Positions 34,349 to 57,518 are shown, counted from the first letter of the stretch. The stretch is 64,000 nucleotides of DNA from a virus (IMGVR_UViG_3300032287_003731:32954-96953), one strand, 5' to 3'. Numbers and translations are program-made. The notes: a model not told the origin generated them from the sequence alone.

Positions 34349-35425
34349 TTAGTGTTTTTTAATACCAGCAAGCATTTGCCATCTTGACATTGTTTCGTCT
34401 ACTTCGACGATTGGTTTTTTAGCAATACCTGCTGCTTTAGAAGCAAAGCCCATAGATTCTTTAATTGAAGACTTAGCGGATTTTACAATAGCAACGTCCA
34501 TAGTTTCATAAATCATCTTAGCTTCTTTAATAGTAGCTGCTTTGTCGAATTGAGCAATTACTTTAAGTTTTTGTGATTCGGTTAAGTTTTTGGCTTTGAA
34601 AATCTTATTTACATAGAGTAATTTAGCGTTAAGAAGATTAACTTCGTTAAGTTCTGAGCGAAGAGTGTGGATAGTAGCAATAGCTTCATCTAACTCTTTT
34701 TTCATTTTATCATCTTCTTCTTTAGCTTTTTTCATTTTTTTCTTAGCTTCGTACATTCCGCCTTCTTCGTATTCTGTTTCTTCAGAATAGTCTTCGCCTA
34801 AAGCGTCAAGTTCAGCTAATAATTCTTCTAAATCAAGATCTTCTTCCATTTCTTCTCCTTCATCAGATACATCAACAGACATTTCATCACCAGCTTCCAT
34901 TTCACCGCCGCCCATGTCTTCCATGCCGCCGTCTTCCATTTCGCTAGAAATAATGTCTTTGATAATCATTTTTAATTCTTCTACTGAAAGATCAGCTACA
35001 GTTTCAGATTCGGTAGATTCAGATTCTTCTTCTTTACCTTCTTCTTCTTCTTCTTTAGCTTCTTCCATTTTTTCTTTTTCTTCTTCTTTTTTAGCTTCTT
35101 CAAGTTCAGCTAAAATTTCAGATAAATCGAAGTCTTCTTCTAACTCATCACCACCTTCTTCAAGAGCAGCACCAGTTGCACGATATCTGTCTTGAATTTT
35201 ATCACTAGTTTCAGAAGGATAGAAGCCTTCTTTCATTTTTTCGTCGTCCTTGTCTTTTGCTTCTTCTAAATCTTCACCTTCCATTTCTTGCAATTTAGCA
35301 GCAAGCATAGATTGAAGTCTAGGGGCAAGAGCTTCTTCAAGAGCGACTTTTGCGTTGGCTAAAGCAGTTTCACGAATAGCTTTAGCGTCAGCAATTGCTT
35401 CTTTGAACAAATCTTGGTTTGTCAT
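34349..35425 (-). CDS. Prohead core/scaffold protein
   Basis: Very acidic, many [LIM]xE sites, between protease and capsid genes; ends MSRWQMLAGIKKH. Confidence 0.85.
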   Translation of the reverse strand: MTNQDLFKEAIADAKAIRETALANAKVALEEALAPRLQSMLAAKLQEMEGEDLEEAKDKDDEKMKEGFYPSETSDKIQDRYRATGAALEEGGDELEEDFDLSEILAELEEAKKEEEKEKMEEAKEEEEEGKEEESESTESETVADLSVEELKMIIKDIISSEMEDGGMEDMGGGEMEAGDEMSVDVSDEGEEMEEDLDLEELLAELDALGEDYSEETEYEEGGMYEAKKKMKKAKEEDDKMKKELDEAIATIHTLRSELNEVNLLNAKLLYVNKIFKAKNLTESQKLKVIAQFDKAATIKEAKMIYETMDVAIVKSAKSSIKESMGFASKAAGIAKKPIVEVDETMSRWQMLAGIKKH

Positions 35426-35572
35426 AAAATTTTTCTCCTTAAATTTTTTTCGGAAATAAGATTATTAGAAAATCTTAATAGGGGTTTGTAATATACCCGA
35501 GGCTGCATAAGAATGGGCAACCTATTGTAGGATGCCCATAAATATATGTAGATATGAAAAACCGCAAATACT

Positions 35573-36178
35573 TTAACATAAAGGACAAACTCCAGTATGT
35601 TGACAAATAATTTCTGTTATTAAACTATTTACTTTACTATAATCTTTAATAGAAGCATATTGCTTTGATTCAGCTAATTTCATATAAGCCTGCGGAGTAC
35701 TAGGTACTGATACTAAATCCCAACATAATAATTCAAAATCATCTTGTACTTCAACTGTTTCACCAAGTTGTTTAACACTACCCATACCACGTGATGAAAT
35801 TCCAAGTGGAATACCTGATAGTACAAGTGCTTTAGCAATATTGCCAGCAGGTGTAGGTAATAATTGTAATTTACCCATTAAGTCATTTCCTTTCCACCAT
35901 ACTTCTGTAATAAGATGAGAAGTATTGGCTAAGTTTACAACAGAGGCTTCAGGATGATCGAGTTCTCCTAAAGCAGTGCGTGTTTTTATTGGTCCTTCAG
36001 CGTATTTTTTTACTTCTCTTTCAAGTATTTCGCGAGGATATACACGACCATTGCCATTTTTTTGCTCAGCTTCTTGTAATTTACCAACTAAAGTGACAGT
36101 ACCATTATTTGCTTTACCTTCAACTAAAGTAAGTTTAGCGTGTTGGAAAGGAGTATGGTCTATAAGTAATGATTTCAT
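35573..36178 (-). CDS. Prohead protease (T4 gp21-like)
   Basis: KNGNGRVYP, ALGELDHP, TPAG, GISSRGMGS, WDLVSVPS. Confidence 0.95.
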   Translation of the reverse strand: MKSLLIDHTPFQHAKLTLVEGKANNGTVTLVGKLQEAEQKNGNGRVYPREILEREVKKYAEGPIKTRTALGELDHPEASVVNLANTSHLITEVWWKGNDLMGKLQLLPTPAGNIAKALVLSGIPLGISSRGMGSVKQLGETVEVQDDFELLCWDLVSVPSTPQAYMKLAESKQYASIKDYSKVNSLITEIICQHTGVCPLC

Positions 36179-36209
36179 TTATAATATTCTTATTAATTAA
36201 AAAGATATA

Positions 36210-37103
36210 TTATCCTCTACCTATCATGTTAAATAGAGAAGTTATATAATCTGCGGCCCAATCGTCATCATTCATTAAATTTCTAGCTACAATTTTAGCA
36301 TTTGGTATTCCTGATTTAATCATATGCGTGTAGGCATATCGAAAAGCTTGGTTTTCCTTTTCTTTTCCTGTTAATTGTTTTAATTCTTTTCCATATGTTT
36401 GAGCTATAAAATTAGCCATTGAATCAGAATCATATGGATCAAATTCTCTATCTTCATCTAAATTATCACGACCATCAAACGTTTCAGCTAACATTTCACG
36501 CACAAGTTTTTCTAATTGTTCTCTAATAGTTTTCATTTTACCACCAGTAGGAGACATTACTTGTTTAATGCCTTTAGCTTTTTTAGCGGCGTGGGTAAGT
36601 TCTTCTACTCCTTTAACGCCTTTATTTGTTTCTTTATATGCTTTATTAGCTGATGCTTTTGCTTTTTCAACACCTTTTGGTGTTTTCATTTGATTTTCTT
36701 TATCAACTAATTCAACTGATTCTTTTTTAACTTTAGCTTTAGCAGGTGCTTTAGCTTTAGGAGCTGAAGGTGATTCAACACCTGATAGTTTTAATGCTGT
36801 ATAGTAAAATGGATTTTCTGCTAGATGATCTAAAGCAATTTTTTCTGCTTTTTTAGGATCATCTGTGTGTTCCATTTCTACTCTGATACCCATTCTTAAT
36901 TCTTGTGGGTGAATTTGATTTGGGTGTAGTTTAGTTTTAGCTTCGCTTAATATTTGTTTATTTTTGAGTATTCTAACAGTATCATCAAACGATGTTACAT
37001 TAGTAACTAAATGGGGAAAAGTCATACGCACATTACGCATAAAGTTAGCTTGTGACATTTTTCCTTCTTTAAGGTCGCGATATTGATTTTGTATACTTTT
37101 CAT
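36210..37103 (-). CDS. Multi-module putative internal head protein
   Basis: Start reassigned to MKSIQ (37103). Contains ELRMGIRVEMEHT...IALDHL.E.P.YY module, Lys/Ala-rich linker, modules separated by LSE/VKE/LAE/LDE. Confidence 0.65.
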   Translation of the reverse strand: MKSIQNQYRDLKEGKMSQANFMRNVRMTFPHLVTNVTSFDDTVRILKNKQILSEAKTKLHPNQIHPQELRMGIRVEMEHTDDPKKAEKIALDHLAENPFYYTALKLSGVESPSAPKAKAPAKAKVKKESVELVDKENQMKTPKGVEKAKASANKAYKETNKGVKGVEELTHAAKKAKGIKQVMSPTGGKMKTIREQLEKLVREMLAETFDGRDNLDEDREFDPYDSDSMANFIAQTYGKELKQLTGKEKENQAFRYAYTHMIKSGIPNAKIVARNLMNDDDWAADYITSLFNMIGRG

Positions 37104-37116
37104 TATTATGTTATTT

Positions 37117-37392
37117 TTAGCTGCCTTTTTCTTTTTTATCTTTTTTATCTTTGGCATATGCTGCTCTAGCTTTATCAAAATCAATACCTGCTCTTAAAGC
37201 TCCATTCTTTCTAATATCATTTTTTACAGCTTCTTTACTAGCATATTTAAAATCAGGATACTTTTTTTCAAAATCTGCTATTTGTTGCAATAAATCTTCC
37301 TCAGCTTTGATTTGCTCAGGAGTTCTTTTTTTAATTGTTATTTCTTGAAGTATTACTTCTTTTATTAATTCACGCAATTCACTTTTTTTCAT
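37117..37392 (-). CDS. Small protein with MKKSELRELIKE leader
   Basis: 91 aa; ATATTTAT at 37420-37427. Confidence 0.7.
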   Translation of the reverse strand: MKKSELRELIKEVILQEITIKKRTPEQIKAEEDLLQQIADFEKKYPDFKYASKEAVKNDIRKNGALRAGIDFDKARAAYAKDKKDKKEKGS

Positions 37393-37426
37393 TGTTTTAT
37401 AATTTATAATTTGTTATGTATAAATA

Positions 37427-37555: not shown

Positions 37556-37570
37556 CTATTTATATTTTTA

Positions 37571-38104
37571 TCACGAAAAAGGTAATTCAGAAGCCGGAAT
37601 AGAAGTTGATTTTATTTTCATTTCTTTTTTAATCATATTTAAAATATAATCAACAGATCCTAATCCTAATTCTTGTAAATTTTCAATAGCTTTTATGGTT
37701 GTATTAATTTCTTTATTTATATATTCTTCTCTTTCAATATCCATAGAAGTATCAGCTTCGTTAATTGGTTTATCAACGAGTATTTCAAATATAGCTTGAG
37801 CTAATTTACCGTAATTACCTTTATCTAAGCTATCTTTCATATAACTGCTGATTCTAGTAGTTGTTCCATTACTAAGTTTCACATTATTATCTTTTCTAAA
37901 AGAAAACCTGTATGTAGCCTCTATTATTTTCATTATATCATCTTCTTGACTAGTACTTATTTCTTGCCCGATTTCTTTTAAATATAATTTTTTTACTTGA
38001 TCTACAATACTATTATATATACTTTCATTTTCATTCATATTATTCTCCTTCAAAATACCAGCTAATTGCTGCATTCTATAAATTTCATTAAGTTGTTTTT
38101 TCAT
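37571..38104 (-). CDS. RMQQLAGI-leader protein (putative capsid cargo)
   Basis: MKKQLNEIYRMQQLAGILKENNMNE followed by unique sequence. Confidence 0.75.
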   Translation of the reverse strand: MKKQLNEIYRMQQLAGILKENNMNENESIYNSIVDQVKKLYLKEIGQEISTSQEDDIMKIIEATYRFSFRKDNNVKLSNGTTTRISSYMKDSLDKGNYGKLAQAIFEILVDKPINEADTSMDIEREEYINKEINTTIKAIENLQELGLGSVDYILNMIKKEMKIKSTSIPASELPFS

Positions 38105-38646
38105 TGATGTAAATTTTTAATTTTATTGTTTAATTGATTAACCATTTCAGATATAGTACCTATATTTTTTTGAGTGGCTTTCCAATAATTAATGCCACCA
38201 TCTTCACTTAATTCTTGTTTCATGCGTGATGTATATTCAACAATACGATCAATTTCTTGCAGTTTGCGTTTTACTTCACGAATCGCTTTATGAAGTTGTT
38301 CTGATTTAGTTCTAAATTTAACTTCGTTTTTGAATTTAGAATAGGTTACTTCGTTGAGTAATTCTTGTTTTATAATTTGATGTAAAGATTCTTTATACAT
38401 TTTATATTTAGGTTTTTCAGCTGATTTCCAAATTGCTTTATAATCTCTTACTTTAGAGTCACTAGGTATTCCTGTAGGAGCTAATTTCATTCCTTGAGAT
38501 TTAGCTGTTTGGGTAGCGGCGTTTGTTTTTTGTCCTTTTTTAGCAAAAGCAAAAGGAGTAGAATATGCTTCTCCTCCACTAGTACCAGACATTTCTTCTA
38601 GTTCTTTACGTATTAATTGCTTTAATTTTTCTCTTAATTGATCCAT
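38101..38646 (-). CDS. Putative prohead core protein
   Basis: LKQLIRKELEE leader, YSTPFAF motif, C-terminal coiled coil; in the head cluster. Confidence 0.65.
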   Translation of the reverse strand: MDQLREKLKQLIRKELEEMSGTSGGEAYSTPFAFAKKGQKTNAATQTAKSQGMKLAPTGIPSDSKVRDYKAIWKSAEKPKYKMYKESLHQIIKQELLNEVTYSKFKNEVKFRTKSEQLHKAIREVKRKLQEIDRIVEYTSRMKQELSEDGGINYWKATQKNIGTISEMVNQLNNKIKNLHQ

Positions 38647-39503: not shown

Positions 39504-39535
39504 AATAGAAATTACTGCTTATAAATATGTATTTA

Positions 39536-41425
39536 TTAAATATCCTTAATATTTTTTTCATTTAGCATATCATTTTCTTCATCGTATACTAGCTTTTTGC
39601 GTTCTATGTTGATACTCTCTAATAGACTTTTATTTTTCTTTAATTCGGATAAAGCAACAGGTGAACCTCCTTTTGGAGTACCATCTTCAGAAGGAATATT
39701 AGCAGTATAAAGAGTACTATTTGCTTTTCTACCAAGTCTATCTTTACCTAATGGGTCTTGTTGAGTACCAATGATAGAGGCTCTTTCTTTAGGGCGACCA
39801 ACAGGACGTTTTTCATCATATCCTGGAGGTATAGGTCCATCAGTATCCATTCCTGTTCTACCTTTACCATACAATGAAGCTAAATCATGTGGTGTACCAT
39901 ATGATTTACCTGATTTAGCTGGGTCGTTACCTTCATTTTCGATTTGAGCTAATCTAAACACACGTTTCTTATCTTCAAGCATTAGATCACGATATTCATC
40001 ATATTGATCTTCACTGAATTGGAATACATTATCATATATCCAATCTGATGGTAATAGATTAGTGTCTTGAATTGATTTAGCTAAGTCAACTTTTTCTTTC
40101 CATAATGCTACTTTCTCTTGTTCATAAATAATAGATGGAGTAGTTAATGATAATTCAAAATTAGTTAATGATTCACCATCATATCCTTGAACGTATAAAT
40201 GCACTAAAGCCATTTTATATAATTCAGAAAGAATAATGCGTTGTACTCGTTCTACTGTACGAGCAAATCTAATATCTTCAGCAGCTAATGTAGCTTTACC
40301 TTCAAGATCTTTCTCAAATCCAAAAAATGCTTTAGGTATCTTAAGTGCAGCTAACATTTCATCACGTAAGAAAGCTACGTCGTCAATAGCATTATATTCA
40401 AGACCTTTTACTGTATCTATTTTAGTTGCTGTATCATTACCACGAACTGGAAGATAAAAGTCTTCCATCAAATTCATTAAGTTATATCTTAAATTATATT
40501 CACCTGTCTGTTGATCAATATAAGGTGTTTTTTTCATCTTTTGCATTACCTTCTGCATGTAAGCGTCTACTTCATGAGGAGGAATATTACCAACATTAAT
40601 AGTAAATACACGTTTTTCTGGAGCACGAGTGATACGATGTAATAACATCGCATCTTTCATTAACACATACTGCTTATATGTTTTGCGAGCAGGTTCAATA
40701 TATGATCTTCCATATGGAAGATAGTTTGCATCAGTTAATAGCCTAAAGTGAGCTATTTCGTAGTTTTCAAATTTAATCTTACCATCTCTATCTTTAACAC
40801 GATTACTTATACCACCAGCCGCAATAACCATTGGATCTATTCTAAAGCAAACATAAGATGGATTTTCAGGATCTTGTCCTTCTTCACGAATCATATCGTA
40901 TACTGAAAGTGGAGTAACATTATATACACCAAATTTTTCAGCGACTTCCATGTGTAAATAAAAGTCACCATACTTACACATATTTCTAATCCATAACCAT
41001 AAGTTAAATTCAATATTTAAAATATCGTAGAATAAATTATATAATATACGTTGAATATTTTCATCAGCGCTTCTAATCTGTAATACTTCACCCGCTTCAT
41101 TTTTTAATGTAGCTTCATCAGCTACAATATCAAGAGCGGATGCTATAATAGATTCAGTATCCATAGCTTCATAGTCAGTATATAACTGAATACGAAGTGT
41201 TTGGTAGTTCATTGTTGGGTTATAGGGCATATTAGCTCCATAACGATGAAGTTTTGTATATCTATCTATTAAAGCGTTTGTTTTTACGTTGCCGTAAGCT
41301 TGGATCTTATCAACATCTACTACTTTAAGTTGATTTCCACCAACATTTCTAATAATAACGTCTGTGCTAAATAGTCTTGTAAGTCTATTAAATAAACCAG
41401 GCTGTTGTTGGTTTTTTTCGGCCAT
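39536..41425 (-). CDS. Portal protein (T4 gp20-like)
   Basis: ALDIVADE, YGRSYIE, RITRAPEKRVF.INVG, EDFYLPVRG, ALKIPK, EDIRFAR. Confidence 0.95.
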   Translation of the reverse strand: MAEKNQQQPGLFNRLTRLFSTDVIIRNVGGNQLKVVDVDKIQAYGNVKTNALIDRYTKLHRYGANMPYNPTMNYQTLRIQLYTDYEAMDTESIIASALDIVADEATLKNEAGEVLQIRSADENIQRILYNLFYDILNIEFNLWLWIRNMCKYGDFYLHMEVAEKFGVYNVTPLSVYDMIREEGQDPENPSYVCFRIDPMVIAAGGISNRVKDRDGKIKFENYEIAHFRLLTDANYLPYGRSYIEPARKTYKQYVLMKDAMLLHRITRAPEKRVFTINVGNIPPHEVDAYMQKVMQKMKKTPYIDQQTGEYNLRYNLMNLMEDFYLPVRGNDTATKIDTVKGLEYNAIDDVAFLRDEMLAALKIPKAFFGFEKDLEGKATLAAEDIRFARTVERVQRIILSELYKMALVHLYVQGYDGESLTNFELSLTTPSIIYEQEKVALWKEKVDLAKSIQDTNLLPSDWIYDNVFQFSEDQYDEYRDLMLEDKKRVFRLAQIENEGNDPAKSGKSYGTPHDLASLYGKGRTGMDTDGPIPPGYDEKRPVGRPKERASIIGTQQDPLGKDRLGRKANSTLYTANIPSEDGTPKGGSPVALSELKKNKSLLESINIERKKLVYDEENDMLNEKNIKDI

Positions 41426-42150: not shown

Positions 42151-43731
42151 TTAAAAAATCCATGTTATATCTTCAAATCCACCTCTTCCATCATTCATCA
42201 TAAATGGGTTTGGTTGGTTAATATTAGGTAACATGGGTTGGTTGTTATAACTTGTTCGTCCTATACTTGAAATCATTGCTTTATTTAAATCTAATCCTTG
42301 CTCATAGAATTTCATCGCGGTGTCTCTAGTAAATAAACCAATTCCTAATGACATAACCAAATCATCATTATAACCATTTTGTGCTTGTGCTTTACCATGT
42401 TGCCAAATAAACACACGTAATTCTTCTAATAAGCGTTTTGATCTAAAAATAAATGCTTTCTCTCTAATATACGACTCCATTTTGGAGATAACAAGTGGTC
42501 TTGTTTTAACTGATGTAGTGAATCCAGGAACGGTCTGCTCAGATTCCATTTTAGATAACCATTTATCAATATGCATTTCACCATAAGCACGAGGTGAATA
42601 ATATAGTTTTTGATATCCTTTTTCAATTACAGTATTAACTACATCCCAACCAATATTTGCGTTTTCTACTACTAATAACGCATTATTATATTCAGTAGCA
42701 ACAGATACTAGCATATTACCATATGTTCTAGTATCTATTTGTGATTTATATTCAGCAACTTGTTCACATGTTGTAGCATCGATGACGTGGAACGCAGAAT
42801 AATCACTACCGTCACCCCTAGCCACATCAGCACATACAATATACTGCTTATTATAATCAGGATAGTTCCAAACCCAAAAGTCGCCACCCATAAAGCGACG
42901 TTCAACAGGGTCTTGTATATAAGTTTCTTCATAGAATGTTAATAAATCAGGTTCAATTACTGAGTTGCCAGAGCCTAAGAAATCACAGTCATATTCTTGA
43001 GCAAATTCACGAATAGACATATTAGTTCGTTCCGTAGATTCCCATTTTTCATCTCGATCAGGATGTAAATTCCAAGGTAATTTAATTGCTTTAAAGTCAT
43101 TTTTACCTATTTCAGCTTCAGTGTACATTTTATGAAACCAGTTACCAACACCGTTTGGTGAAGATAAAGCAATAATACCACCACCAGTTGCAATTGTTGG
43201 TTTAATTGATGTGTAAATACGATCAATACCTTCAATAAACGCAGCCTCATCTACTAATAATAACGATACAGCGTATGATCGACCAGCATCAGATGCTGCT
43301 GAGGTAGCTATTATTTGGGAGTTATTTGCTAGTTTAAGTGATAATTTATTATCGGATATTGGTTTTTGATTACCTTTTAACCAGTTAGGTAAGTTATTGT
43401 ACATAAATTGTACTTTATCTACCATACCTTTTGCTGTTTCTTGTTTAGTTGCTATACATAATACAGTTTTATCTTTATTAAATAGCATTGTCCATAATGA
43501 AAAACCAGCAACTAATGTAGATATACCTAACTGTCTTGACTTATTAATAATACAGAAACGATTATTTCTAAAGTCGTTTAATACCTCTTCTTGGAATGGA
43601 TATAGATGAAATAATACTCGTCCTTTAACAGGGTGAGTAATATAACAGTACTTACGAAAGAAATGTACAGGATCTAAAGCACATTTAATATACTCCTGTT
43701 TAATTATTTCTTTAATTTGTGCTTGACTCAT
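42151..43731 (-). CDS. terL: Terminase large subunit (T4 gp17-like)
   Basis: KSRQLGIST, LLVDEAAF, SSPNG.GN.F, QEY.C.F, ADVARGDGSDYS, ENAN.G, DDLVMS. Confidence 0.97.
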   Translation of the reverse strand: MSQAQIKEIIKQEYIKCALDPVHFFRKYCYITHPVKGRVLFHLYPFQEEVLNDFRNNRFCIINKSRQLGISTLVAGFSLWTMLFNKDKTVLCIATKQETAKGMVDKVQFMYNNLPNWLKGNQKPISDNKLSLKLANNSQIIATSAASDAGRSYAVSLLLVDEAAFIEGIDRIYTSIKPTIATGGGIIALSSPNGVGNWFHKMYTEAEIGKNDFKAIKLPWNLHPDRDEKWESTERTNMSIREFAQEYDCDFLGSGNSVIEPDLLTFYEETYIQDPVERRFMGGDFWVWNYPDYNKQYIVCADVARGDGSDYSAFHVIDATTCEQVAEYKSQIDTRTYGNMLVSVATEYNNALLVVENANIGWDVVNTVIEKGYQKLYYSPRAYGEMHIDKWLSKMESEQTVPGFTTSVKTRPLVISKMESYIREKAFIFRSKRLLEELRVFIWQHGKAQAQNGYNDDLVMSLGIGLFTRDTAMKFYEQGLDLNKAMISSIGRTSYNNQPMLPNINQPNPFMMNDGRGGFEDITWIF

Positions 43732-44466: not shown

Positions 44467-45417
44467 TTATTTTATAATGCCTGCGTAGTATTGCATTTTA
44501 TTTTTATTCCATTCGTCTAATTCATCCTTTTTAGATTGACGCTTCTGTAAATATTCAGAACTAGCTACTAAATTATTTACACGTTGTTCCAAACTTGCTT
44601 TTAAATCCATTAAACGTTTTTCCTCTGTAGATGATTTGTCTTTAATATCACCAGTACCAGCCATAAATTTAGCACGCTTCATTCTATTTAGATCACTTTT
44701 TACTTTATTTAAACGATCTGCAAGATCAGTATATTTCATAAAAGTGTTATAATCTTCATCTGATAGTCCAGAAGCGGATGAAGGGGTAGGTACTTTTCCT
44801 AATTCAGGAGTAGATTCTTCTTCGTCGCCTGCTGCTTTAGCTTGAGCAAATGATGCTTCAATTTCTTCATCACTTAAATCACCAGAAACAATACCTGTTT
44901 CTTCTTCTGGTTCTACTTCTTCACCAGGTTCTGCTTTAGGTTTCATAAATTGAGGGACAACACCAGCGGTTGTTGGTGCTAGAATACCAAGTCTAATCAT
45001 ATCACGAGCATAGTCAGATATGCGTGGTTGAGGAACATTAAATTTTTCTCTAGCTATTTTAGTAATATCGGCAGGACCATTATCTTTTATATAATCTATG
45101 ATACCATTAACCCACACCATTCGTTTAGATGAGCCAACATAAGGTAATTCAGAAAGTTTATCAGCATAGTCGTCACTTACTTTATAGATAATAGGTTGAC
45201 GAGCCATTTCTTTTAGTTTTTTAGTTCCCATTGTAACACTAGCTACATTAGGATCTATTTTCAATTTATTAATTGTAGGAGCATCTGAGGGGTCAATATC
45301 TAGAATTTTATCTCCTCTATTTTTATCTTTAAAATCGATAGTAGTTGATTGAGTAGCTTCATTCATTACTTCATCAATAACTTCACGTATGAGTTCTTGT
45401 AATTCTGATTTTTTCAT
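44467..45417 (-). CDS. Multi-module putative internal protein with winged-helix-like segment
   Basis: MKKSELQELIRE leader, GPADITKIAREKFNVPQPRISDYARDMIRLGIL, acidic linker, C-terminal KMQYYAGIIK. Confidence 0.65.
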   Translation of the reverse strand: MKKSELQELIREVIDEVMNEATQSTTIDFKDKNRGDKILDIDPSDAPTINKLKIDPNVASVTMGTKKLKEMARQPIIYKVSDDYADKLSELPYVGSSKRMVWVNGIIDYIKDNGPADITKIAREKFNVPQPRISDYARDMIRLGILAPTTAGVVPQFMKPKAEPGEEVEPEEETGIVSGDLSDEEIEASFAQAKAAGDEEESTPELGKVPTPSSASGLSDEDYNTFMKYTDLADRLNKVKSDLNRMKRAKFMAGTGDIKDKSSTEEKRLMDLKASLEQRVNNLVASSEYLQKRQSKKDELDEWNKNKMQYYAGIIK

Positions 45418-51179: not shown

Positions 51180-51418
51180 GATCTATTTCCCATTTTTTTA
51201 GAAGCAGCTGTTTTATGAAAAGGAACTCCATTTTCTTCTTTTTTAGCCATTTCCCACGCTTCTTTAGTGTATTTAGTACCAAATAAATAATACTCTGCTA
51301 AGCGTTTGTTACCTTGTGGGATAAGAGCAGGTCCATCAAAATTATGAAGTTTATATACTCCATTAGCTTCATTAACATATGCTATAGTTCCATCTGCTTT
51401 TACTAGTTTTTTTACCAT
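51176..51418 (-). CDS. Small protein with LHNFDGPA repeat-type motif
   Basis: KLHNFDGPALIP...EYYLFG. Confidence 0.7.
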   Translation of the reverse strand: MVKKLVKADGTIAYVNEANGVYKLHNFDGPALIPQGNKRLAEYYLFGTKYTKEAWEMAKKEENGVPFHKTAASKKMGNRS

Positions 51419-51452
51419 ATTTTTATTTTAAAATTAATAAAATTATTTTGCC
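51417..51452. repeat. 36-bp direct repeat (second copy 52047..52082) flanking a cargo cassette
   Basis: ATATTTTTATTTTAAAA[T/G]TAATAAAATTATTTTGCC, one mismatch. Confidence 0.85.
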
Positions 51453-51453
51453 T

Positions 51454-51486: not shown

Positions 51487-51542
51487 CATCATGACTATAA
51501 ATCTAGTATGTATGTTTTTACTAATTTTTATTCAATTAAATT

Positions 51543-52025
51543 TTAAGCTCCTAATGAATCATAAAAAGCATCCCATAATTCCTCTTCTTCATATTCTATT
51601 TCAATATCTTTTCCACTTTTAGAATATACATATCCTATTACTTCAAATTCAGCATCACTGCATCCTTCTGGATCAAGAATTAAACCTGGAATATTTTTTT
51701 CTAATTCTAATTTAGGGTCAGGCATACTTAAAATCCATTTTTTATCATCTGGAAGATCAATAAAATTGGAATACCCTATAATTTCTTTTACTTTTTTTCC
51801 ATTTATTAATATAAAATCATCTGCTAGTCCTTTTTCACAATAAAAGAATTTATAATCTTTTTCATTTTGATAATAATTAGGAGTATATTTAACTACTAAA
51901 TCATCTTCAAAATTAAAATCTTCAATTTCTCCTTTATCATTAATAGAAACTTCATCTAATTGTGATTCTTTTAAAATACCAGCTAACTGCTGCATTCTAT
52001 GAATTTCGTTAAGTTGCTTTTTCAT
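51543..52025 (-). CDS. RMQQLAGI-leader protein (putative capsid cargo), acidic payload
   Basis: MKKQLNEIHRMQQLAGILKESQLDE. Confidence 0.75.
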   Translation of the reverse strand: MKKQLNEIHRMQQLAGILKESQLDEVSINDKGEIEDFNFEDDLVVKYTPNYYQNEKDYKFFYCEKGLADDFILINGKKVKEIIGYSNFIDLPDDKKWILSMPDPKLELEKNIPGLILDPEGCSDAEFEVIGYVYSKSGKDIEIEYEEEELWDAFYDSLGA

Positions 52026-52072
52026 TTTTTTTTATTATAATAATAAATATTTTTATTTTAAAAGTAATAAAA

Positions 52073-52846
52073 TTATTTTGCCAAAATGCTTTCAGCAACA
52101 TAAATACCATGCGCACCGCTAACGGTAATACCACGAGCTGAAAGTGCATCACCTACAAAGTGTACATATGGATATTCAGTTAATGATAAATCATCATAAT
52201 TAACTAACGGTTCCGGTGATAAGTATTTTACTTCAGGAATGTACATACCCCAATCATCACCAAATTCAAATACTTTATTCATTGATAATATAAAATCATG
52301 AATATAAGTAGCATATTCACCTAATACTTCATAAAACCTAACCAAATTATCTACAGGATAAGCAGATACAGTTGTTCCCTCGGATGTTAATCCAGGTTGA
52401 CGAGTTTTGTTTGGTGAATAATAAGTACCAGTTCCATTAATTTGTAGTTTTTGAACAATATCTCTACTCCAAGCAAATGGATCTTCAATACCTTTGATTT
52501 CCATTAATATACCAAAATTAGTCATTTGGTTTTCGAATTCTTTACCTTTTTTGGCGTGTCCGTTGTAGCTAACGTCTCCATAAGTTTCTTCCACTGCAAC
52601 GTAAGCTGCATTGTTGTTAGTACAAAAGCTACGGAGAGATACCTTATCGAATTTTTGATATAGTTTAAAATCATATGATATATCAATTAGTTTTTGAAAA
52701 TACTTTTGTGGGCTTTCAAATCTCACTCCAATCTGCACAGCGCGAGCTTCAGTTGGTAATTGTTTTTCTCTCACTATTTTTTGAGTTAAATCCATACCAG
52801 CTTTACCAGTACCATAAATTAAAGTATCAAATTTTATTTTTTTCAT
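52073..52846 (-). CDS. FAD-dependent oxidoreductase, C-terminal half
   Basis: GTGKAG, IGVRFE, RSFCTN, NGHA, TNFGIL, PEVKY, FVGDA..ARGI..SGAHG. Confidence 0.85.
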   Translation of the reverse strand: MKKIKFDTLIYGTGKAGMDLTQKIVREKQLPTEARAVQIGVRFESPQKYFQKLIDISYDFKLYQKFDKVSLRSFCTNNNAAYVAVEETYGDVSYNGHAKKGKEFENQMTNFGILMEIKGIEDPFAWSRDIVQKLQINGTGTYYSPNKTRQPGLTSEGTTVSAYPVDNLVRFYEVLGEYATYIHDFILSMNKVFEFGDDWGMYIPEVKYLSPEPLVNYDDLSLTEYPYVHFVGDALSARGITVSGAHGIYVAESILAK

Positions 52847-52847
52847 A

Positions 52848-53648
52848 TTAATTGTTTTTATATTTCCATTTATAACCTAATACAGATTTTCTTTTTCCTT
52901 GACAACATAAACATATTCCTCCATTGCTTTTTAATCCTGTTGTATCCTCAAATTCTTGAACAGAATCCCACTCTTTAATAAAATTATCTTCTAAATCATA
53001 TTGAAGGACAGGTTTTCTTCTTTTTTGAGAAACCATTTGATTTCTATATGTCCAATCTATATCTCGTTTTTTAAAAGTATCACTTTTCTTCTTTCTAGTC
53101 TCTTCAGAATCTTTTATACCTAATCTAACTTTTTTACCTATCATAGACTTACTTTTCTTCTCACTGCTTTCCTTACTCATCTTTTTGCCTTTATTAGGTG
53201 ATATATGACCTTTTAATCCTTCAGATATTTTTCTTTTAGATTCTTCAGAATGTTTCATTCCAGTAGTACCAGCTTTAACACCACATTCAGCTATATTAGC
53301 TAATATATAACCTTTATTTCGCAAATCTAATTCTATTTCTCTTTCTTTTAATAATGCTTCATTTTCACTTAATCCTTCAAATAATATTTTAGATTCAAAT
53401 ACACCATTATTTTTATTTACAATATTATGCCAGTATTGATTTCTACCATATTTTGATCTATCTCGTTTAGATATTCCTTTTCCAACATAAAACGGTTTAT
53501 TCATATCAGGTCGTATATGAATATAAACTATAAAGTTATTGTTTTGGTTTTTTTTCGTGATATTTTTGTTTGAGTTTTTCATCGATTTTTTCTTTATTAG
53601 ACCAATAATATTTCTTACTATATTCTCGTTGTTTGAGAATACGTTCAT
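52848..53648 (-). mobile_element. GIY-YIG-like homing endonuclease (NUMOD3/NUMOD1) splitting the oxidoreductase
   Basis: VYIHIRPD..PFYVGKG, HSEESKRKIS, VLQYDLE..FIKEW, GYKWKY; true start uncertain. Confidence 0.85.
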
Positions 53649-53679
53649 CTTCTGTTTGATATTTTTTAATACGTCCCAT
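53536..53679 (-). CDS. 47-aa basic ORF at the head of the endonuclease insert
   Basis: Hand-translated MGRIKKYQTEDERILKQREYSKKYYWSNKEKIDEKLKQKYHEKKPKQ; first ATG after ATATTTAT (53685-53692). Confidence 0.55.
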   Translation of the reverse strand: MGRIKKYQTEDERILKQREYSKKYYWSNKEKIDEKLKQKYHEKKPKQ

Positions 53680-53721
53680 CTATTATAAATATTATAGATC
53701 TAAGAAAAAATCTAAGAAAAA

Positions 53722-54243
53722 TCAATTATTCTTTAATATTATTTCTTTAGTTTCAAAATCAATATCTTCAACTTCAGTATTCCACATGAATCTAACACCT
53801 TTATCAACTAAATATTGATACCAACGTTTTCCTATTTCATGCAAGTAGTCTGTACCTATGTGGTATACGGGGAATAAGCGAAGTCCAAAATACGGCTTAA
53901 TAAAATCTGGTTCTGCTTGTGGGTTAGAGTACATTATTTTAGAAGGATCAGGATGGAAGCGTTTCCACATCTCAATTGATTGATTCATTAAATTATATGC
54001 TTTTTTTTCACCACAATACTTACTTAACTGACCTCCAATTGAAGTATGATAAGTAAGTTTACCATCTGAAAATCCTCCTGCTCCTGCAAAACCACACATT
54101 ACTTCTTCTGGTTTGCGAACATAAGGATCATTCCCTTTATCAATAATAGTAATTAATTCTCCAGGATAATTATTATCTATTAATTTTAATGCAGCACTAA
54201 TACCAGCTACACCACTTCCAACAATTACAATTTTATTCTTCAT
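53722..54243 (-). CDS. FAD-dependent oxidoreductase, N-terminal half
   Basis: IVIVGSGVAG Rossmann motif, GFAGAGGFSDGKL, HIGTD. Confidence 0.88.
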   Translation of the reverse strand: MKNKIVIVGSGVAGISAALKLIDNNYPGELITIIDKGNDPYVRKPEEVMCGFAGAGGFSDGKLTYHTSIGGQLSKYCGEKKAYNLMNQSIEMWKRFHPDPSKIMYSNPQAEPDFIKPYFGLRLFPVYHIGTDYLHEIGKRWYQYLVDKGVRFMWNTEVEDIDFETKEIILKNN

Positions 54244-54499
54244 TTTGATTTTCTTTATTTTTTCTTTTATATTCTTTAATTGTTTCTTGAGGTTCTTCTG
54301 TTTTTACTTCTTTATCTGCTTTTACCATTTCAGTAATTTCTTCTAAATTTTCAATTATTGAATCTAGTTTTTCAATAACTGTAGGAGTTTCTGGTTCTGT
54401 GGGTGGAGGAGGTGTTGTTGGGGTTTTAACTTGATTTTCTGCAGAGATAGCATTGTTAACCATGTTAAACCATCCTCTAATTGATCTTTGATAACTCAT
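54233..54499 (-). CDS. Hypothetical protein
   Basis: 88 aa with Pro-rich linker; overlaps the oxidoreductase start. Confidence 0.55.
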   Translation of the reverse strand: MSYQRSIRGWFNMVNNAISAENQVKTPTTPPPPTEPETPTVIEKLDSIIENLEEITEMVKADKEVKTEEPQETIKEYKRKNKENQNEE

Positions 54500-54519
54500 G
54501 TTTTATTATTTTTATAAAA

Positions 54520-55065
54520 TTAATAATTTATTTTTGCCATTTCAAATTTTGAAGGTCTAATATTCCAATTATCAATATATCTTATATTTTTTTCTTTTTT
54601 ACACCATATCGCTATAGTAGAAAGACTTATATTTAATTTATTAGCTGCTTCAGAACAAGATTCATATATCTCTCCGGTTTTTATATTTTGTATTCGTTTT
54701 CCTAGTTTTCTTTTAAATTTATTTTCCATCCAAAGTTTTTTCATTTTTTCACTTTTAATACGTTTAGCTTCTTCAGGATATATATAAGGTTTATGATAAC
54801 CTCCTCCTATGCAATTCATACCATTTAAAACACAGTTATACTGTTTTATCCAGTATTGTTCTTTTTTATTTAGTTCTTCTTCTTTACATTCTTCTATTAT
54901 TTCAAAAGAATGATAAAACCATCCATATTTTTTTAAAGATTCATATAATTTAGTTTGTTCTTTACAATAATGCTTTTTATATGTTTCAAATCTTTTTTCT
55001 ATATTAGTTGATTGACCAATATATATTTCTTTTTCAGGGTTAGTTATTTTATAAATACCTATCAT
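54520..55065 (-). mobile_element. Free-standing GIY-YIG homing endonuclease
   Basis: MIGIYKITNP...IYIGQSTNIEKR, KKYG, E.YWI; C-terminal NUMOD1-like HTH. Confidence 0.9.
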
Positions 55066-55089
55066 AATATTATTTATAATAAATATTAC

Positions 55090-55130
55090 AAAAAAAAATG
55101 GAGTAGTGGCTGTTTTAGGGCCACTACTCC
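55090..55130 (-). terminator. Strong terminator downstream of the cassette array
   Basis: GGAGTAGTGGC/GCCACTACTCC 11-bp stem followed by a T9 run on the minus strand. Confidence 0.85.
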
Positions 55131-55192
55131 GATTTATATAAATCCTCTAATGAGGCGAACAGGCAATGAATCTGTTTTATATATTTATATTA

Positions 55193-55534
55193 TTATAAAT
55201 AATTATTATAATATATAACTTTACCTGCTATATTTGCTGATTTTACTTTATTATATGGATCATTTTCAGGAAAAAGTTCTAACATATGTTCTTTACTAAA
55301 AGAAACATCTATTCCTGAGTTATCATCAGTACCTGCTGTAGCTACTAATGGATCACCCATAATTTCAAATTCAGAACCAGGATCACCTATTTTTTGAATA
55401 AATTCATCCATATTAGCGTTCAAAAATGAAGCAATATTTTTATCTTCATTCATTAATGATTCTTGATATTCACTTTCAGTGATTAATCCAGCGATAAGCT
55501 GCATTCTTTTAATTTCGTTAATTTGTTTTTTCAT
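55193..55534 (-). CDS. RMQLIAGL-leader protein (cassette 3)
   Basis: First 90 nt identical to those of 55604..56245. Confidence 0.8.
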   Translation of the reverse strand: MKKQINEIKRMQLIAGLITESEYQESLMNEDKNIASFLNANMDEFIQKIGDPGSEFEIMGDPLVATAGTDDNSGIDVSFSKEHMLELFPENDPYNKVKSANIAGKVIYYNNYL

Positions 55535-55603
55535 TTTTTTTTTTTGTTATATGTTAATAAATATCAGAACAGGCAATAAATCTGTTTTATATGTATTATT
55601 ATT

Positions 55604-56245
55604 TTATACTAATTCAATTCCCATTTCTTTTAACTTTTTTATAAAACTCATAATTTTTTGATTATCTACATCATCAAAGTCAGCTTCAAAAGCATCTTTT
55701 CCAGTTAAATCAGTTAAAATACCCATCCACTCTTCAGTTCCTGATTCTATTTCTTTGCCTCCCATTGATTCAAAATAATCATCATCTACTCCATTTTGAT
55801 TTAAAATATTAAGAACTTCTTCTTCAGACATTTGCTTATTTACTGATGAAATATTGTTAGGGGTTACTCTATTGGATTTTCTCCATGTAATTTTCACATC
55901 ACGGCCATATTTTATTTTAGCTGCTTTTGTTACAGCTTGTTCAAAACGAACACCTAATGCAAGATATGCGTTTTTATTTTCCCAATAGTTTTTAGGATCT
56001 CTTGGTCCTGGTATATAAATACTCTTCATAAAATCAGCTTCATTATCAGTTTCTAATTCTATTTCAAAAGTATTAGAATCAGCATCGTAAATACCATAGT
56101 CGTCTACATTATTGGGATTTATAAGAGTTTTTCTTAAAGTTTTATCAATTTCCCATTCATTCATTAATGATTCTTGATATTCACTTTCAGTGATTAATCC
56201 AGCGATAAGCTGCATTCTTTTAATTTCGTTAATTTGTTTTTTCAT
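55604..56245 (-). CDS. RMQLIAGL-leader protein (cassette 2)
   Basis: MKKQINEIKRMQLIAGLITESEYQESLMNE followed by unique payload. Confidence 0.8.
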   Translation of the reverse strand: MKKQINEIKRMQLIAGLITESEYQESLMNEWEIDKTLRKTLINPNNVDDYGIYDADSNTFEIELETDNEADFMKSIYIPGPRDPKNYWENKNAYLALGVRFEQAVTKAAKIKYGRDVKITWRKSNRVTPNNISSVNKQMSEEEVLNILNQNGVDDDYFESMGGKEIESGTEEWMGILTDLTGKDAFEADFDDVDNQKIMSFIKKLKEMGIELV

Positions 56246-56307
56246 TTTTTTTGTTATATATTAAATAAATATCTGAACAGGCAATAAATCTGTTTTATAT
56301 GTTTATA

Positions 56308-56640
56308 TTATTTTTGAATACGATCTTGTATTTCTTTTAATACTGATTTATCATGTATTGATATTGCAGGAGCACCATATCCTGAATCTGGCGTTAGTAT
56401 ACAAACGTAATTACTTCCTTCAAATACCACAGCATTTATTGTATTAGTTTCTATATCTGTTAATGTTCCTAATACTGTGCAATCATCTTTAAGTCCGGCG
56501 CTAAGATCTCCATCTGCTGGTGAATAGGCTCCTAAATTTTGTCCTGGTTGAAAGATAGTTACTTCTTCGTTTAGTTGGTTTTCTTTTAAAATACCAGCTA
56601 ATTGCTGTATTCTTTTAATTTCGTTAATTTGCTCTTTCAT
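56308..56640 (-). CDS. RIQQLAGI-leader protein (cassette 1)
   Basis: MKEQINEIKRIQQLAGILKENQLNE. Confidence 0.8.
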   Translation of the reverse strand: MKEQINEIKRIQQLAGILKENQLNEEVTIFQPGQNLGAYSPADGDLSAGLKDDCTVLGTLTDIETNTINAVVFEGSNYVCILTPDSGYGAPAISIHDKSVLKEIQDRIQK

Positions 56641-56649
56641 TTTTTTTTG

Positions 56650-57129
56650 TTATATATTAATAAATATCCAAGATGGCGTATTTCCTAATTTTTTCCAACT
56701 TAACCCTTTAACAGCTATTTTATCTTTAATATAAAACTGCTTATAAGCAATAATAGTATCACTATTCTTATACTCATCAGGCATACATTGTGGTGGGGGA
56801 GTAAACCCATTATCGGGTATATTAGGTTCATTATCACGGCACCATTCAAGTACATCTTGTGTTTTATGGTGTTTACCATAACGTTTTGTAAATTCACTAC
56901 AAATTTCAAGACCATGTTGTACAAGCCAACGATAGTGTTGAATTGATTGGCGAGTCCAAATTGTTGATGGATGATTAAAATGAGCACGCTTATATGGTGC
57001 TTGTGAACCTACTGCCCAATGTGTTGTACAGCACATTTGAGCTGATTCGATTTGCATTTTACGAATATGATCATCGGCTAATTGTTGTGCTGCGATGATT
57101 GGGTCTTGATTGATATAAAATATATTCAT
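56650..57129 (-). CDS. Pyrimidine-dimer DNA glycosylase (DenV-like) family protein
   Basis: MNIFY, D.HI.KM.IESAQM, YK..H.NHP..IW.R, EF.KRYGK.HK, QCMPDEYK. Confidence 0.8.
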   Translation of the reverse strand: MNIFYINQDPIIAAQQLADDHIRKMQIESAQMCCTTHWAVGSQAPYKRAHFNHPSTIWTRQSIQHYRWLVQHGLEICSEFTKRYGKHHKTQDVLEWCRDNEPNIPDNGFTPPPQCMPDEYKNSDTIIAYKQFYIKDKIAVKGLSWKKLGNTPSWIFINI

Positions 57130-57164
57130 ACTTTAAAAGTATAAATTTTATTTTGCCCTTTATA

Positions 57165-57518
57165 TTATTTTACGTTATATTCTTTGTTACCTACTTTTAG
57201 ATTAACTACAGTATCAAGATTTATCATTCTATAAGCTCGCTTTTGAATATCAAAAACAGGAATTAATCCTTTAGGTTCAGGATTATATGGTAGTTCACCT
57301 CCTTTAAGATAAGCTTTAACTCCTAAACGAGCATTCATAACTCGAGTAGTACCATCTGTTCTTTTAATAAAAGTTACTGTAAAAAATTTACCTTTAGTAT
57401 CTTTAATTACTTTTTTAGCTTGTTCATGGTTAATAGTTTCTACAGAAGAAGAATTTACATTCTGTTCTACAAGAATTCCTGCTAATTTTTGCCAACGTTT
57501 TGCTTCTTGTATTAACAT
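57165..57518 (-). CDS. SH3/WYL-like phage protein with RWQKLAGI leader
   Basis: FFTVTFIKRTDG..R.MNARLGV...VFDIQK.AYR.INL core preceded by MLIQEAKRWQKLAGILVE. Confidence 0.7.
   Translation of the reverse strand: MLIQEAKRWQKLAGILVEQNVNSSSVETINHEQAKKVIKDTKGKFFTVTFIKRTDGTTRVMNARLGVKAYLKGGELPYNPEPKGLIPVFDIQKRAYRMINLDTVVNLKVGNKEYNVK

What the first reader, a model, noticed from the sequence alone, without database searches (positions are those of the whole stretch)
34349..57518. Candidate modular capsid-cargo system: unrelated proteins carry a scaffold-mimic leader bracketed by prohead-protease sites
Seen: the scaffold ends ...IVEVDETMSRWQMLAGIKKH. The same motif opens six otherwise unrelated ORFs: 38104 (MKKQLNEIYRMQQLAGILKENNMNE), 52025 (MKKQLNEIHRMQQLAGILKESQLDE), 55534 and 56245 (MKKQINEIKRMQLIAGLITESEYQESLMNE), 56640 (MKEQINEIKRIQQLAGILKENQLNE) and 57518 (MLIQEAKRWQKLAGILVE). 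A variant closes 44467..45417 (LDEWNKNKMQYYAGIIK). Each leader is flanked by [ILM]xE tripeptides, and similarity stops right after the last one. Established: T4 gp21 cleaves after (I/L)xE; T4 internal proteins use a short cleavable capsid-targeting leader and IPI* is an injected anti-restriction factor; scaffold C-termini bind coat protein in several phages (e.g. P22). Inference: this phage reuses the scaffold's capsid-binding helix as a portable tag that loads variable payloads into the prohead, where the protease at 35573..36178 frees them for co-injection, possibly as anti-defence or host-takeover effectors.
Basis: partly seen in the sequence, partly recalled or inferred. Interest (0 to 1): 0.92.

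Follow-up and report, generated by a model that had tools for sequence, protein, structure and literature searches.

The report
Scaffold-tail tag on phage cargo proteins
An uncultured T4-like phage starts six unrelated small proteins with the same short helix that ends its head-scaffold protein, followed by a cut site for its head protease. This most likely loads changeable cargo into the capsid, a new version of a trick known from phage T4, but no experiment has tested it.

Summary
The window is part of a 97-kb IMG/VR contig of a distant T4-like myophage with a gp23-type capsid protein, an S77 gp21-type protease and a gp20-type portal.

- **In the window:** the motif R[MWI]QxLAG[IL] opens six unrelated ORFs and closes the scaffold. 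There are 7 strict hits against 0 in shuffles.
- **In IMG/VR:** of 129 exact RMQQLAGI matches, 77 are ORF N-termini and 43 are extreme C-termini. 41 of those 43 ORFs lie directly upstream of a gp23-like capsid gene.
- **In 596 Gb of prokaryote genomes:** 86 matches, about what I estimate for chance, and none with the leader layout.
- **Breadth:** a leader profile finds 1,553 protein clusters (50% identity).
- **Leader consensus:** MKxQ[IL]NE-[IV]KRMQQLAGI[IL]xE. 94% have a hydrophobic-x-Glu site 2-5 residues after AGI, against 8% background.
- **Modularity:** payloads are very diverse and 83% are acidic. They change behind a constant leader, and one payload carries alternative leaders.
- **Context:** half the sampled leader genes sit in the head module, and four window copies have the putative late promoter.

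Best reading (about 0.6): a T4-style capsid-targeting propeptide that copies the scaffold's C-terminal docking helix and is removed by the prohead protease. The binding partner, packaging, cleavage and injection are all untested. A first-reader note (e1-5696463) records the same LAGI scaffold-and-leader pattern in another genome, and notes on other phages report different leaders. New variant of a known kind.

The parts
32677..34317 (-). Major capsid protein, gp23 family. The N-terminal propeptide contains ..QLITE|ASATGG, close to T4's LTE|A maturation site.
   Evidence: Pfam Gp23 E 7.6e-79; PHROG major head protein; alignment to T4 gp23
34349..35425 (-). Acidic gp22-like scaffold protein ending ..PIVEVDETMSRWQMLAGIKKH*
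   Evidence: Position between protease and capsid gene; homologues in immuto, Mel-JY01 and 40+ IMG/VR loci
34352..34414 (-). Scaffold C-terminal docking motif (RWQMLAGIKKH), preceded by IVE/VDE candidate cut sites
   Evidence: Conserved at the scaffold C-terminus in immuto, Mel-JY01, RM378 and 49 of 49 IMG/VR loci with a readable scaffold
35573..36178 (-). Prohead serine protease, gp21/S77 family
   Evidence: Pfam Peptidase_S77 E 2.8e-33; LGELDHP and SSRGMGS blocks align with T4 gp21
36210..37103 (-). Conserved head-module (core-like) protein with a DUF5661 match; probable ATG start at 37103
   Evidence: Pfam DUF5661; syntenic homologues in immuto and IMG/VR loci
37117..37392 (-). Small gene with a second leader type (MKKSELRELIKEVILQE|IT). 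The closest relative has the same 19 residues followed by an unrelated payload.
37571..38104 (-). Leader gene 1 inside the head operon (leader 38030-38104, MKKQLNEIYRMQQLAGILKENNMNE); payload pI 4.85
   Evidence: Same position in 8 or more related contigs, with unrelated payloads
38101..38646 (-). Conserved head-module protein starting MDQLREKLKQLIRKELEE|MSG (leader-like, LxE)
39536..41425 (-). Portal protein, gp20 family
   Evidence: Pfam Portal_T4 E 4.2e-69
42151..43731 (-). Large terminase. In relatives the slot just upstream is the commonest site of leader genes.
   Evidence: PHROG terminase large subunit; 21 of 38 head-module leader genes lie upstream of TerL
44467..45417 (-). 316-aa protein with a type-2 leader at the N-terminus and a conserved scaffold-like tail ..LDEWNKNKMQYYAGIIK* (44470-44520); function unknown
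   Evidence: The AF2 model shows an N-terminal helix, a small alpha/beta domain (residues 77-148) that I read as possibly winged-helix-like, a coiled coil and a C-terminal helix. No fold match.
51543..52025 (-). Leader gene 2 (leader 51951-52025); payload pI 4.08; ATATTTAT 25 nt upstream
55193..55534 (-). Leader gene 3 (leader 55445-55534); ATATTTAT 30 nt upstream
55604..56245 (-). Leader gene 4 (leader 56156-56245, the same 30 residues as gene 3). Its payload recurs behind an internal leader in P0004.
56308..56640 (-). Leader gene 5 (leader 56566-56640); ATATTTAT 27 nt upstream
57165..57518 (-). Leader gene 6 (leader 57465-57518, MLIQEAKRWQKLAGILVE) joined to a basic WYL_2 / SH3-like barrel
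   Evidence: Pfam WYL_2. AF2: helix 2-12, disordered 13-23, folded 26-117. Homologues carry alternative leaders or none.

Best explanation
The roughly 20-25-residue leader, MKxQ[IL]NE[IV]KR[MW]QxLAG[IL][IL]xE, is a capsid-targeting propeptide of a large environmental clade of distant T4-like phages.

Its core, [IVF]x R[MW]QxLAGI [IK]K, copies the C-terminal helix of the phage's own gp22-like scaffold. Proposed sequence of events:

1. Tagged proteins are made late, together with the head proteins.
2. The leader docks at the site the scaffold tail uses. That site could be the inner face of the gp23-type shell or the scaffold core itself.
3. The proteins are enclosed in the prohead.
4. The S77 (gp21-type) prohead protease cuts after the conserved hydrophobic-x-Glu that follows AGI, and perhaps also after the [IL]NE in front of the helix. 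This frees the payload inside the shell.
5. The matching cut at [IV][IV]E upstream of the scaffold tail releases the scaffold.
6. Folded payloads cannot leave through the small capsomer pores, so they would stay in the head and leave with the DNA at infection.

Shown here: the motif, its two positions, its restriction to viruses, its co-occurrence with the scaffold motif, modular exchange of leader and payload, head-module location, shared promoter-like motif, conserved Glu sites, and a T4-type protease.

Inferred: docking, cleavage, packaging and injection. Payload function is unknown.
For: - Non-chance motif at six N-termini and the scaffold C-terminus.
- Scaffold tail motif conserved in immuto (..RWQKLAGIIK*), Mel-JY01 (..RMKKLAGIVK*) and RM378 (..RIKRLAGL*), and in 49 of 49 IMG/VR scaffolds. 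Ten of these came from loci retrieved through N-terminal leaders only.
- IMG/VR scan: 77 N-terminal and 43 C-terminal matches out of 129. 41 of the 43 C-terminal ORFs lie directly upstream of a gp23-like gene.
- 596 Gb of prokaryote genomes give 86 matches, none with the leader layout. By my estimate that is about what chance would give.
- 1,553 clusters match the leader profile, nearly all at residues 1-25.
- Synonymous codon variety at R, L, A, G and I points to selection on the peptide rather than the DNA.
- The Glu site after AGI is present in 68 of 72 leaders against 7.8% background.
- The protease is S77 and keeps the LGELxHP and SSRGxGS blocks that align with T4 gp21. The capsid propeptide has ITE|A.
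- Modularity: 67 leader proteins fall into 53 payload clusters. The syntenic slot holds unrelated payloads in close relatives. The WYL_2 payload occurs with leader type 1 (96), type 2 (14), other short N-termini (10), or with no leader in Pakpunavirus and Nitrincola phages.
- 38 of 77 leader genes lie in the head module on the same strand.
- ATATTTAT lies before the sheath, tube, hub, portal and TerL genes and before four leader genes.
- AF2 shows the leader as a detached helix plus a disordered linker in front of a well-folded payload.
- Precedent: the T4 CTS and its diverse internal proteins (PMC3012670, PMC9026906, PMC5694885). Cargo fused to the P22 scaffold is used for engineered loading; I know this from the review PMC9962691, which was listed but not read here.
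Against: - There is no virion proteomics or any other experiment for any member.
- The binding partner of the helix is unknown. No co-fold could be run.
- In T4, the CTS targets proteins to the core, and T4 gp22 has no LAGI tail. The mechanism cannot simply be carried over from T4.
- 83% of payloads are acidic, with a median pI of 4.4. T4-type internal proteins are described as basic (PMC9026906). Acidic proteins beside packed DNA are unexpected and could instead be scaffold-like filler.
- Mel-JY01 and RM378 have the scaffold tail but no detectable leader genes. The motif's primary role is therefore in the scaffold.
- Gene 57165-57518 lacks the ATATTTAT motif and sits among replication and repair genes.
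- The leader helix has low AF2 confidence, pLDDT about 50.
Confidence: 0.6

Rival explanations
1. The tagged proteins are accessory components of the scaffolding core. They co-assemble with the scaffold through the shared helix and help build or size the prohead. They are then degraded and expelled at maturation rather than delivered to the next host.
For: - Payloads are acidic like the scaffold itself: median pI 4.4, with 55 of 66 below 5.5 against 25 of 72 background genes.
- T4 core proteins gp67 and gp68 are encoded at the same position between portal and protease, and the gp67 sequence ends in a long run of acidic residues.
- One leader gene sits exactly in that slot.
Against: - Extreme payload diversity and turnover at a fixed locus do not fit a structural role.
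- At least one payload is a compact, well-folded basic barrel.
- Some family members carry sequence motifs that read like enzyme domains (ParB-like, 2H-phosphoesterase-like). I identified these by eye only.
- There are 2-10 copies per genome with no conserved set.
Confidence: 0.17
2. The helix is a docking peptide for a shared partner other than the shell or core, such as the prohead protease (a substrate exosite), the portal, or a chaperone. The tag would then direct processing, timing or folding rather than encapsidation.
For: - The scaffold and the tagged proteins are all predicted protease substrates.
- The helix is bracketed by Glu sites on both sides.
- Internal copies sit at module joints in long proteins.
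- A second protein, 44467-45417, carries the tail next to the terminase genes.
Against: - An S77 protease is active only inside the assembled prohead. This is T4 knowledge (PMC9546572), so being a substrate already implies enclosure.
- The capsid protein, the main substrate, lacks the motif.
- The head-module location and the scaffold tail position fit assembly better.
Confidence: 0.13
3. The shared N-terminus is a by-product of DNA-level cassette shuffling, in which promoter, ribosome site and first codons serve as recombination arms. Alternatively, it marks a paralogous family whose C-termini diverged. On either view it has no targeting role.
For: - A 100-nt 99% repeat covers the leader and upstream DNA of two adjacent genes.
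- Hairpin and promoter-like repeats delimit the tandem units (notes e1-6011500 and e1-6011501).
Against: - The peptide is conserved with many synonymous codon changes across phages whose capsid proteins are 36-90% identical to the window's.
- The same eight residues end the scaffold in a different DNA context.
- The leader is absent from homologues of the payload in unrelated phages.
- Two different leaders alternate on one payload.
Confidence: 0.05

Closest known systems
Phage T4 capsid targeting sequence (CTS) on internal proteins IPI, IPII, IPIII and Alt, removed by gp21 (Mullaney and Black 1996; reviewed in PMC3012670, PMC9026906)
   Same: Both have a T4-type head kit (gp20, gp21, gp22, gp23 homologues). 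Both have a short conserved N-terminal propeptide on otherwise unrelated, fast-evolving small proteins, ending in hydrophobic-x-Glu. In both, the genes lie partly in the head module and partly scattered.
   Different: The leader is longer (20-25 against 10-19 residues) and unrelated in sequence to MKTYQEFIAE. Its core equals the scaffold's C-terminal tail, which T4 gp22 lacks. Payloads are mostly acidic, not basic. Internal copies occur in long proteins. Nothing has been shown experimentally.
Long propeptides on ejection and inner-body proteins of giant phages (phiKZ, 201phi2-1, SPN3US), cut by a gp21-like protease (PMC5694885)
   Same: Both use a prohead protease of the same family. Both show conserved N-termini on diverged paralogues, inferred to have a targeting role, and multiple cut sites within propeptides.
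   Different: Those propeptides are often more than 100 residues long and the cut motif is A/S-x-E. No scaffold counterpart is known, so no scaffold mimicry has been proposed.
Scaffold C-terminal coat-binding region used as a loading handle: the P22 scaffold helix-turn-helix and engineered P22 cargo fusions (PMC9962691), and the SaPI1 CpmB tail that mimics the 80alpha scaffold tail (from my own knowledge, Dearborn et al. 2017)
   Same: The idea that the scaffold's C-terminal peptide is the address for the inside of the shell, and that another protein can borrow it.
   Different: P22 loading is man-made, keeps a large scaffold fragment, and involves no protease. CpmB is a size-redirecting scaffold, not a cargo carrier. 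Here the borrowed piece is about 12 residues, is placed at the N-terminus, and is predicted to be cleaved off.
Encapsulin cargo-loading peptides
   Same: A short peptide on diverse cargo is presumed to bind the inner face of an HK97-fold shell.
   Different: Those peptides are C-terminal, different in sequence, uncleaved, and act in a non-viral compartment. This is an analogy only and was not tested here.

Membership tests
T4-type internal-protein / CTS system | gp21-family (Peptidase S77) prohead protease encoded with gp20, gp22-like and gp23 homologues | tested here: met
   Pfam Peptidase_S77, Gp23 and Portal_T4; the LGELDHP and SSRGMGS blocks align with T4 gp21
T4-type internal-protein / CTS system | Short N-terminal propeptide shared by otherwise unrelated proteins | tested here: met
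   Six window ORFs; 67 IMG/VR proteins in 53 payload clusters; 1,553 clusters overall
T4-type internal-protein / CTS system | Propeptide ends at the protease consensus (L/I)-x-E | tested here: met
   68 of 72 leaders against 7.8% background. This is at sequence level only.
T4-type internal-protein / CTS system | Leader homologous in sequence to the T4 CTS (MKTYQEFIAE) | tested here: not met
   T4 IPII, IPIII and IPI N-termini were read from NC_000866 and show no resemblance to R[MW]QxLAGI. The second leader type (MKKSELRELIKEVILQE) is only loosely CTS-like.
T4-type internal-protein / CTS system | Proteins present in virions, with the propeptide removed, and injected | not testable with these tools
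   No proteomics was found for immuto or its relatives
T4-type internal-protein / CTS system | Mature proteins basic and DNA-associated | tested here: not met
   Payload median pI 4.4; only 57165-57518 is basic, at pI 9.9
Scaffold-tail mimic (same docking site as the scaffold C-terminus) | Same core peptide in the scaffold tail and the leader within one genome | tested here: met
   The window, immuto, and 10 of 10 leader-retrieved loci with a readable scaffold
Scaffold-tail mimic (same docking site as the scaffold C-terminus) | Both peptides bind the same site on the capsid protein or core | not testable with these tools
   Only single-chain folding was available
Encapsulin cargo-loading peptide | C-terminal peptide on cargo of a non-viral HK97-fold nanocompartment | tested here: not met
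   The tag is N-terminal, it sits in a phage with portal, terminase and tail genes, and it is absent from cellular genomes

The most novel reading that the evidence does not exclude
R[MW]QxLAGI is a general address for the inside of gp23-type capsids in a large aquatic T4-like clade. It would be a viral counterpart of the encapsulin loading peptide, taken from the scaffold's own tail, usable at N-termini and at internal joints of polyproteins, and interchangeable with a second leader type. If so, well over a thousand unrelated, mostly acidic proteins could be read from sequence alone as capsid-packaged, protease-released and co-injected cargo. The roughly 12-residue core would also be a ready-made packaging tag.
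Probability: 0.4. Interest if true: 0.85.

Novelty: new variant of a known kind. Interest (0 to 1): 0.72.

Why it matters
How the T4 capsid-targeting sequence finds the prohead is still not understood at the structural level. In this clade the targeting peptide is the same as the scaffold's conserved C-terminal tail. That gives a concrete hypothesis that can be tested directly: one docking site shared by scaffold and cargo.

It would also allow a sequence-only census of candidate packaged and injected proteins in uncultured phages, covering at least 1,553 clusters, almost all of unknown function. One cultured member, Flavobacterium phage immuto, offers a place to test it.

If confirmed, this would be a natural, minimal, protease-removable loading tag for phage capsids.

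Tried and rejected
- tblastn with the 25-residue leader against GenBank phages was too insensitive. It found only immuto, at E=6.
A degenerate DNA pattern worked instead.
With a 40-residue region it found only 7 proteins.
- A full-text search for the motif strings found no paper.
- Payload function could not be assigned. Pfam and PHROGs were nearly silent. The ESM Atlas gave nothing usable for 55604-56245. Foldseek gave only weak SH3/PWWP/WYL-like hits for 57165-57518 and nothing for 44467-45417.
- I had expected window 37571-38104 and its counterpart in the closest relative, L084, to be a payload swap. They are not. They are 48% identical, with a 20-residue insertion directly after the leader. 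Real swaps at this slot appear in more distant relatives.
- Synteny with T4 denV-ipII-ipIII is weak. The window's Pyr_excise ORF barely passes Pfam and does not align to T4 denV.
- T4 gp22 has no LAGI tail.

Full report
**What the window is.** The window is bases 32954-96953 of a single 96,953-bp IMG/VR virus contig. Nearly all genes are on the minus strand. The region holds:
- a gp23-family major capsid protein (32677-34317);
- a Peptidase_S77 (gp21-type) prohead protease (35573-36178);
- a gp20-type portal (39536-41425) and a large terminase (42151-43731);
- sheath, tube and baseplate hub genes further along.

The nearest isolates, by capsid protein identity, are Flavobacterium phage vB_FspM_immuto (58%), Microcystis phage Mel-JY01 (49%) and Rhodothermus phage RM378 (38%). 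The protease keeps the LGELxHP and SSRGxGS blocks that align with T4 gp21. The capsid propeptide carries ..QLITE|ASATGG close to T4's ..FLTE|AEIGG. T4-like cutting after hydrophobic-x-Glu is therefore a reasonable assumption.

**Check of the observation.**
- Every quoted peptide is present.
- The strict motif occurs 7 times in six frames and never in 30 shuffles. Six copies sit 8-12 residues after an initiator Met and one ends the scaffold.
- The other 33 kb of the contig has none.
- A profile of the leader scores the six ORFs at E 1e-10 to 1e-16. Their payloads show no mutual similarity.
- The weaker tail of 44467-45417 is not significant against that profile, but it is conserved in six homologues.

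**Does the pattern generalise?**
- Scaffold tails: the scaffolds of immuto, Mel-JY01 and RM378 end ..RWQKLAGIIK*..RMKKLAGIVK* and ..RIKRLAGL*.
- Other isolates: immuto also has two N-terminal leader ORFs. Mel-JY01 and RM378 have none detectable.
Of 129 matches, 77 are N-terminal leaders, 43 are extreme C-termini and 9 are something else. Of the 43 C-terminal ORFs, 41 lie directly upstream of a gp23-like gene.
- Co-occurrence: all 49 scaffolds that could be read end in the motif. Ten of these came from loci retrieved only through a leader.
- Cellular genomes: the same pattern in 596 Gb of prokaryote genomes gave 86 matches, about what I estimate for chance, and none has the leader layout.
- Protein space: a 26-position profile finds 1,553 clusters (50% identity) at E<=1e-3 among 1.84 billion proteins. 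About nine in ten of the best 150 match at residues 1-25.
- Per genome: complete 175-183-kb genomes carry 2-10 profile matches each, some of which may be the scaffold tail.
- Level of selection: codons for R, L, A, G and I vary freely, so selection acts on the peptide.

**Anatomy of the tag.**
- The consensus is M-K-x-Q-[IL]-N-E-[IV]-K-R-M-Q-Q-L-A-G-I-[IL]-x-E.
- The [IL]NE in front is present in about 85% of leaders.
- A hydrophobic-x-Glu ending 2-5 residues after AGI is present in 68 of 72, against 7.8% background. Conservation then decays.
- Scaffolds read ..Q-P-[IV]-[IV]-E-x-x-A-A-x-R-R-M-Q-Q-L-A-G-I-[IV]-K-stop. They have a Glu site upstream and the chain end downstream.
- In an AlphaFold model of 57165-57518 built with 62 homologues, the leader is a low-confidence helix (residues 2-12). 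A disordered stretch (13-23) containing LVE|Q follows, and then a confident beta-barrel at pLDDT about 90.

**Modularity.**
- 67 complete leader proteins (39-914 aa, median about 118) fall into 53 payload clusters. Pfam recognises two of 71.
- The slot between the homologues of 38101-38646 and 36210-37103 always holds a leader gene, but the payloads are unrelated even in a relative whose portal is 87% identical.
- The WYL_2 payload of 57165-57518 has 519 homologue clusters. Of the best 120, 96 carry the LAGI leader, 14 carry a different amphipathic leader (..LRxLIKE..[IL]xEQ) and 10 carry other short N-termini. Homologues in Pseudomonas phage PaoP5 and Nitrincola phage have no leader at all.
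- That second leader type is also in the window, at 37117-37392 and 44467-45417. In the closest relative its 19 residues are identical and the payload is unrelated.
- Some proteins carry two leaders, or internal leaders at the joints of repeated or unrelated modules.

**Context.**
- 38 of 77 sampled leader genes lie in the head module on the same strand. 21 are just upstream of the terminase, at least 9 are in the portal-protease interval, and 3 are between protease and scaffold.
- In this contig, ATATTTAT is strongly strand-biased (41 of 48 copies on the coding strand). 32 copies lie 8-60 nt upstream of starts. These include the sheath, tube, hub, portal and terminase genes and four leader genes. 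I read it as a late-promoter candidate.
- Two adjacent leader genes share a 100-nt 99% repeat and hairpin repeats. Recombination at the leader probably helps shuffle payloads.

**Interpretation.**
- The closest known system is the T4 capsid targeting sequence. This is a 10-19-residue propeptide that takes the highly diverse internal proteins into the scaffolding core and is removed by gp21. It can carry foreign proteins into the head and on into the host (PMC3012670, PMC9026906, PMC5694885).
- The present leader meets the structural criteria for such a system but is not homologous to the T4 CTS, and T4 gp22 lacks the tail.
- What is new is that the tag is identical to the scaffold's conserved C-terminal tail. 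This suggests how it docks.
- The main caveats are the complete lack of experimental evidence, the unknown partner, and the unexpected acidity of the payloads: 55 of 66 have pI below 5.5, against 25 of 72 background genes (Fisher p 6e-9). That acidity keeps alive the rival reading that these are expendable core components.
- I put the targeting-propeptide reading at about 0.6. A role as injected anti-defence effectors is well below that.

**Earlier notes.** They cover the cassette array, the 90-nt identity, the WYL tag and the polyproteins. A first-reader note on another genome (e1-5696463) records a scaffold ending RWQTLAGI and two leaders with the same motif. Several followed-up findings describe different CTS-like leaders in other T4-like and jumbo phages. 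I did not test those.

Noticed in passing
window 37117-37392, 44467-45417; also 58750-59271 ([24 protein letters not shown]..); L084:919-1311: There is a second N-terminal leader type, an amphipathic helix ending in [IL]xE (MKKSELRELIKEVILQE). In the closest relative it is identical for 19 residues and is followed by an unrelated payload. It alternates with the LAGI leader on the WYL_2 payload in other phages.
   Followed up: partly
whole contig; e.g. window 41453, 43743, 52050, 55564, 56272, 56667: ATATTTAT has 41 of its 48 copies on the coding strand, and 32 copies lie 8-60 nt upstream of gene starts (sheath, tube, hub, portal, terminase, homing endonucleases, leader genes). It is probably the late promoter of this phage group.
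   Followed up: partly
window 51418-51452, 52048-52082, 54504-54538, 57123-57157: A 35-nt repeat (coding strand GGCAAAATAATTTTATTA..TTTTAAAATAAAAATA) sits upstream of several non-structural genes and of leader gene 51543-52025. It may be a second promoter class. That leader gene would then have both promoter types.
   Followed up: no
P0001-P0007, P0038, P0071, P0084, P0101, P0103, P0123 (metagenomic proteins): Some proteins have two leader copies or internal copies at module joints, including tandem repeats of leader plus a roughly 150-aa unit. By eye, some have a ParB-like DGHHRW segment with a hydrophobic C-terminus, or HxT..HxT and DxDGV motifs. These look like protease-cut polyproteins.
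   Followed up: partly
IMG/VR payloads and window leader genes: Payloads behind the leader are strongly acidic (median pI 4.4). This is unlike the basic T4-type internal proteins and remains unexplained.
   Followed up: partly
L001 (NC_055915) 20001-21242: The immuto scaffold gene (gp067) is annotated in GenBank as 'DNA polymerase phi-like protein'. Its position, its acidity and its homology to the window scaffold show that it is the head scaffold.
   Followed up: partly
L001 12006-13306 and 19616-19843: immuto gp077, gp076 and gp069 share yet another N-terminal motif (M..NF.L..FL.ENKLT..). It may be a further leader family.
   Followed up: no
window 56650-57129: A weak Pyr_excise (denV-like) ORF is flanked by two leader genes. 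In T4, denV lies next to ipII and ipIII. The two proteins do not align pairwise, so this may be coincidence.
   Followed up: partly
window 52073-54243: A Rossmann-type N-terminal ORF (53722-54243) and a further ORF (52073-52846) are separated by an ORF I did not characterise (52848-53648).
   Followed up: no
P0151: A protein identical to 51543-52025 is on record on a 152,230-bp contig. A more complete copy of this phage genome therefore exists.
   Followed up: no
P0264 versus window 58318-58746: In another phage the C-terminal domain of 58318-58746 is fused, behind a leader, to the WYL_2 payload. This suggests that 58318-58746 belongs to the same cargo pool.
   Followed up: no
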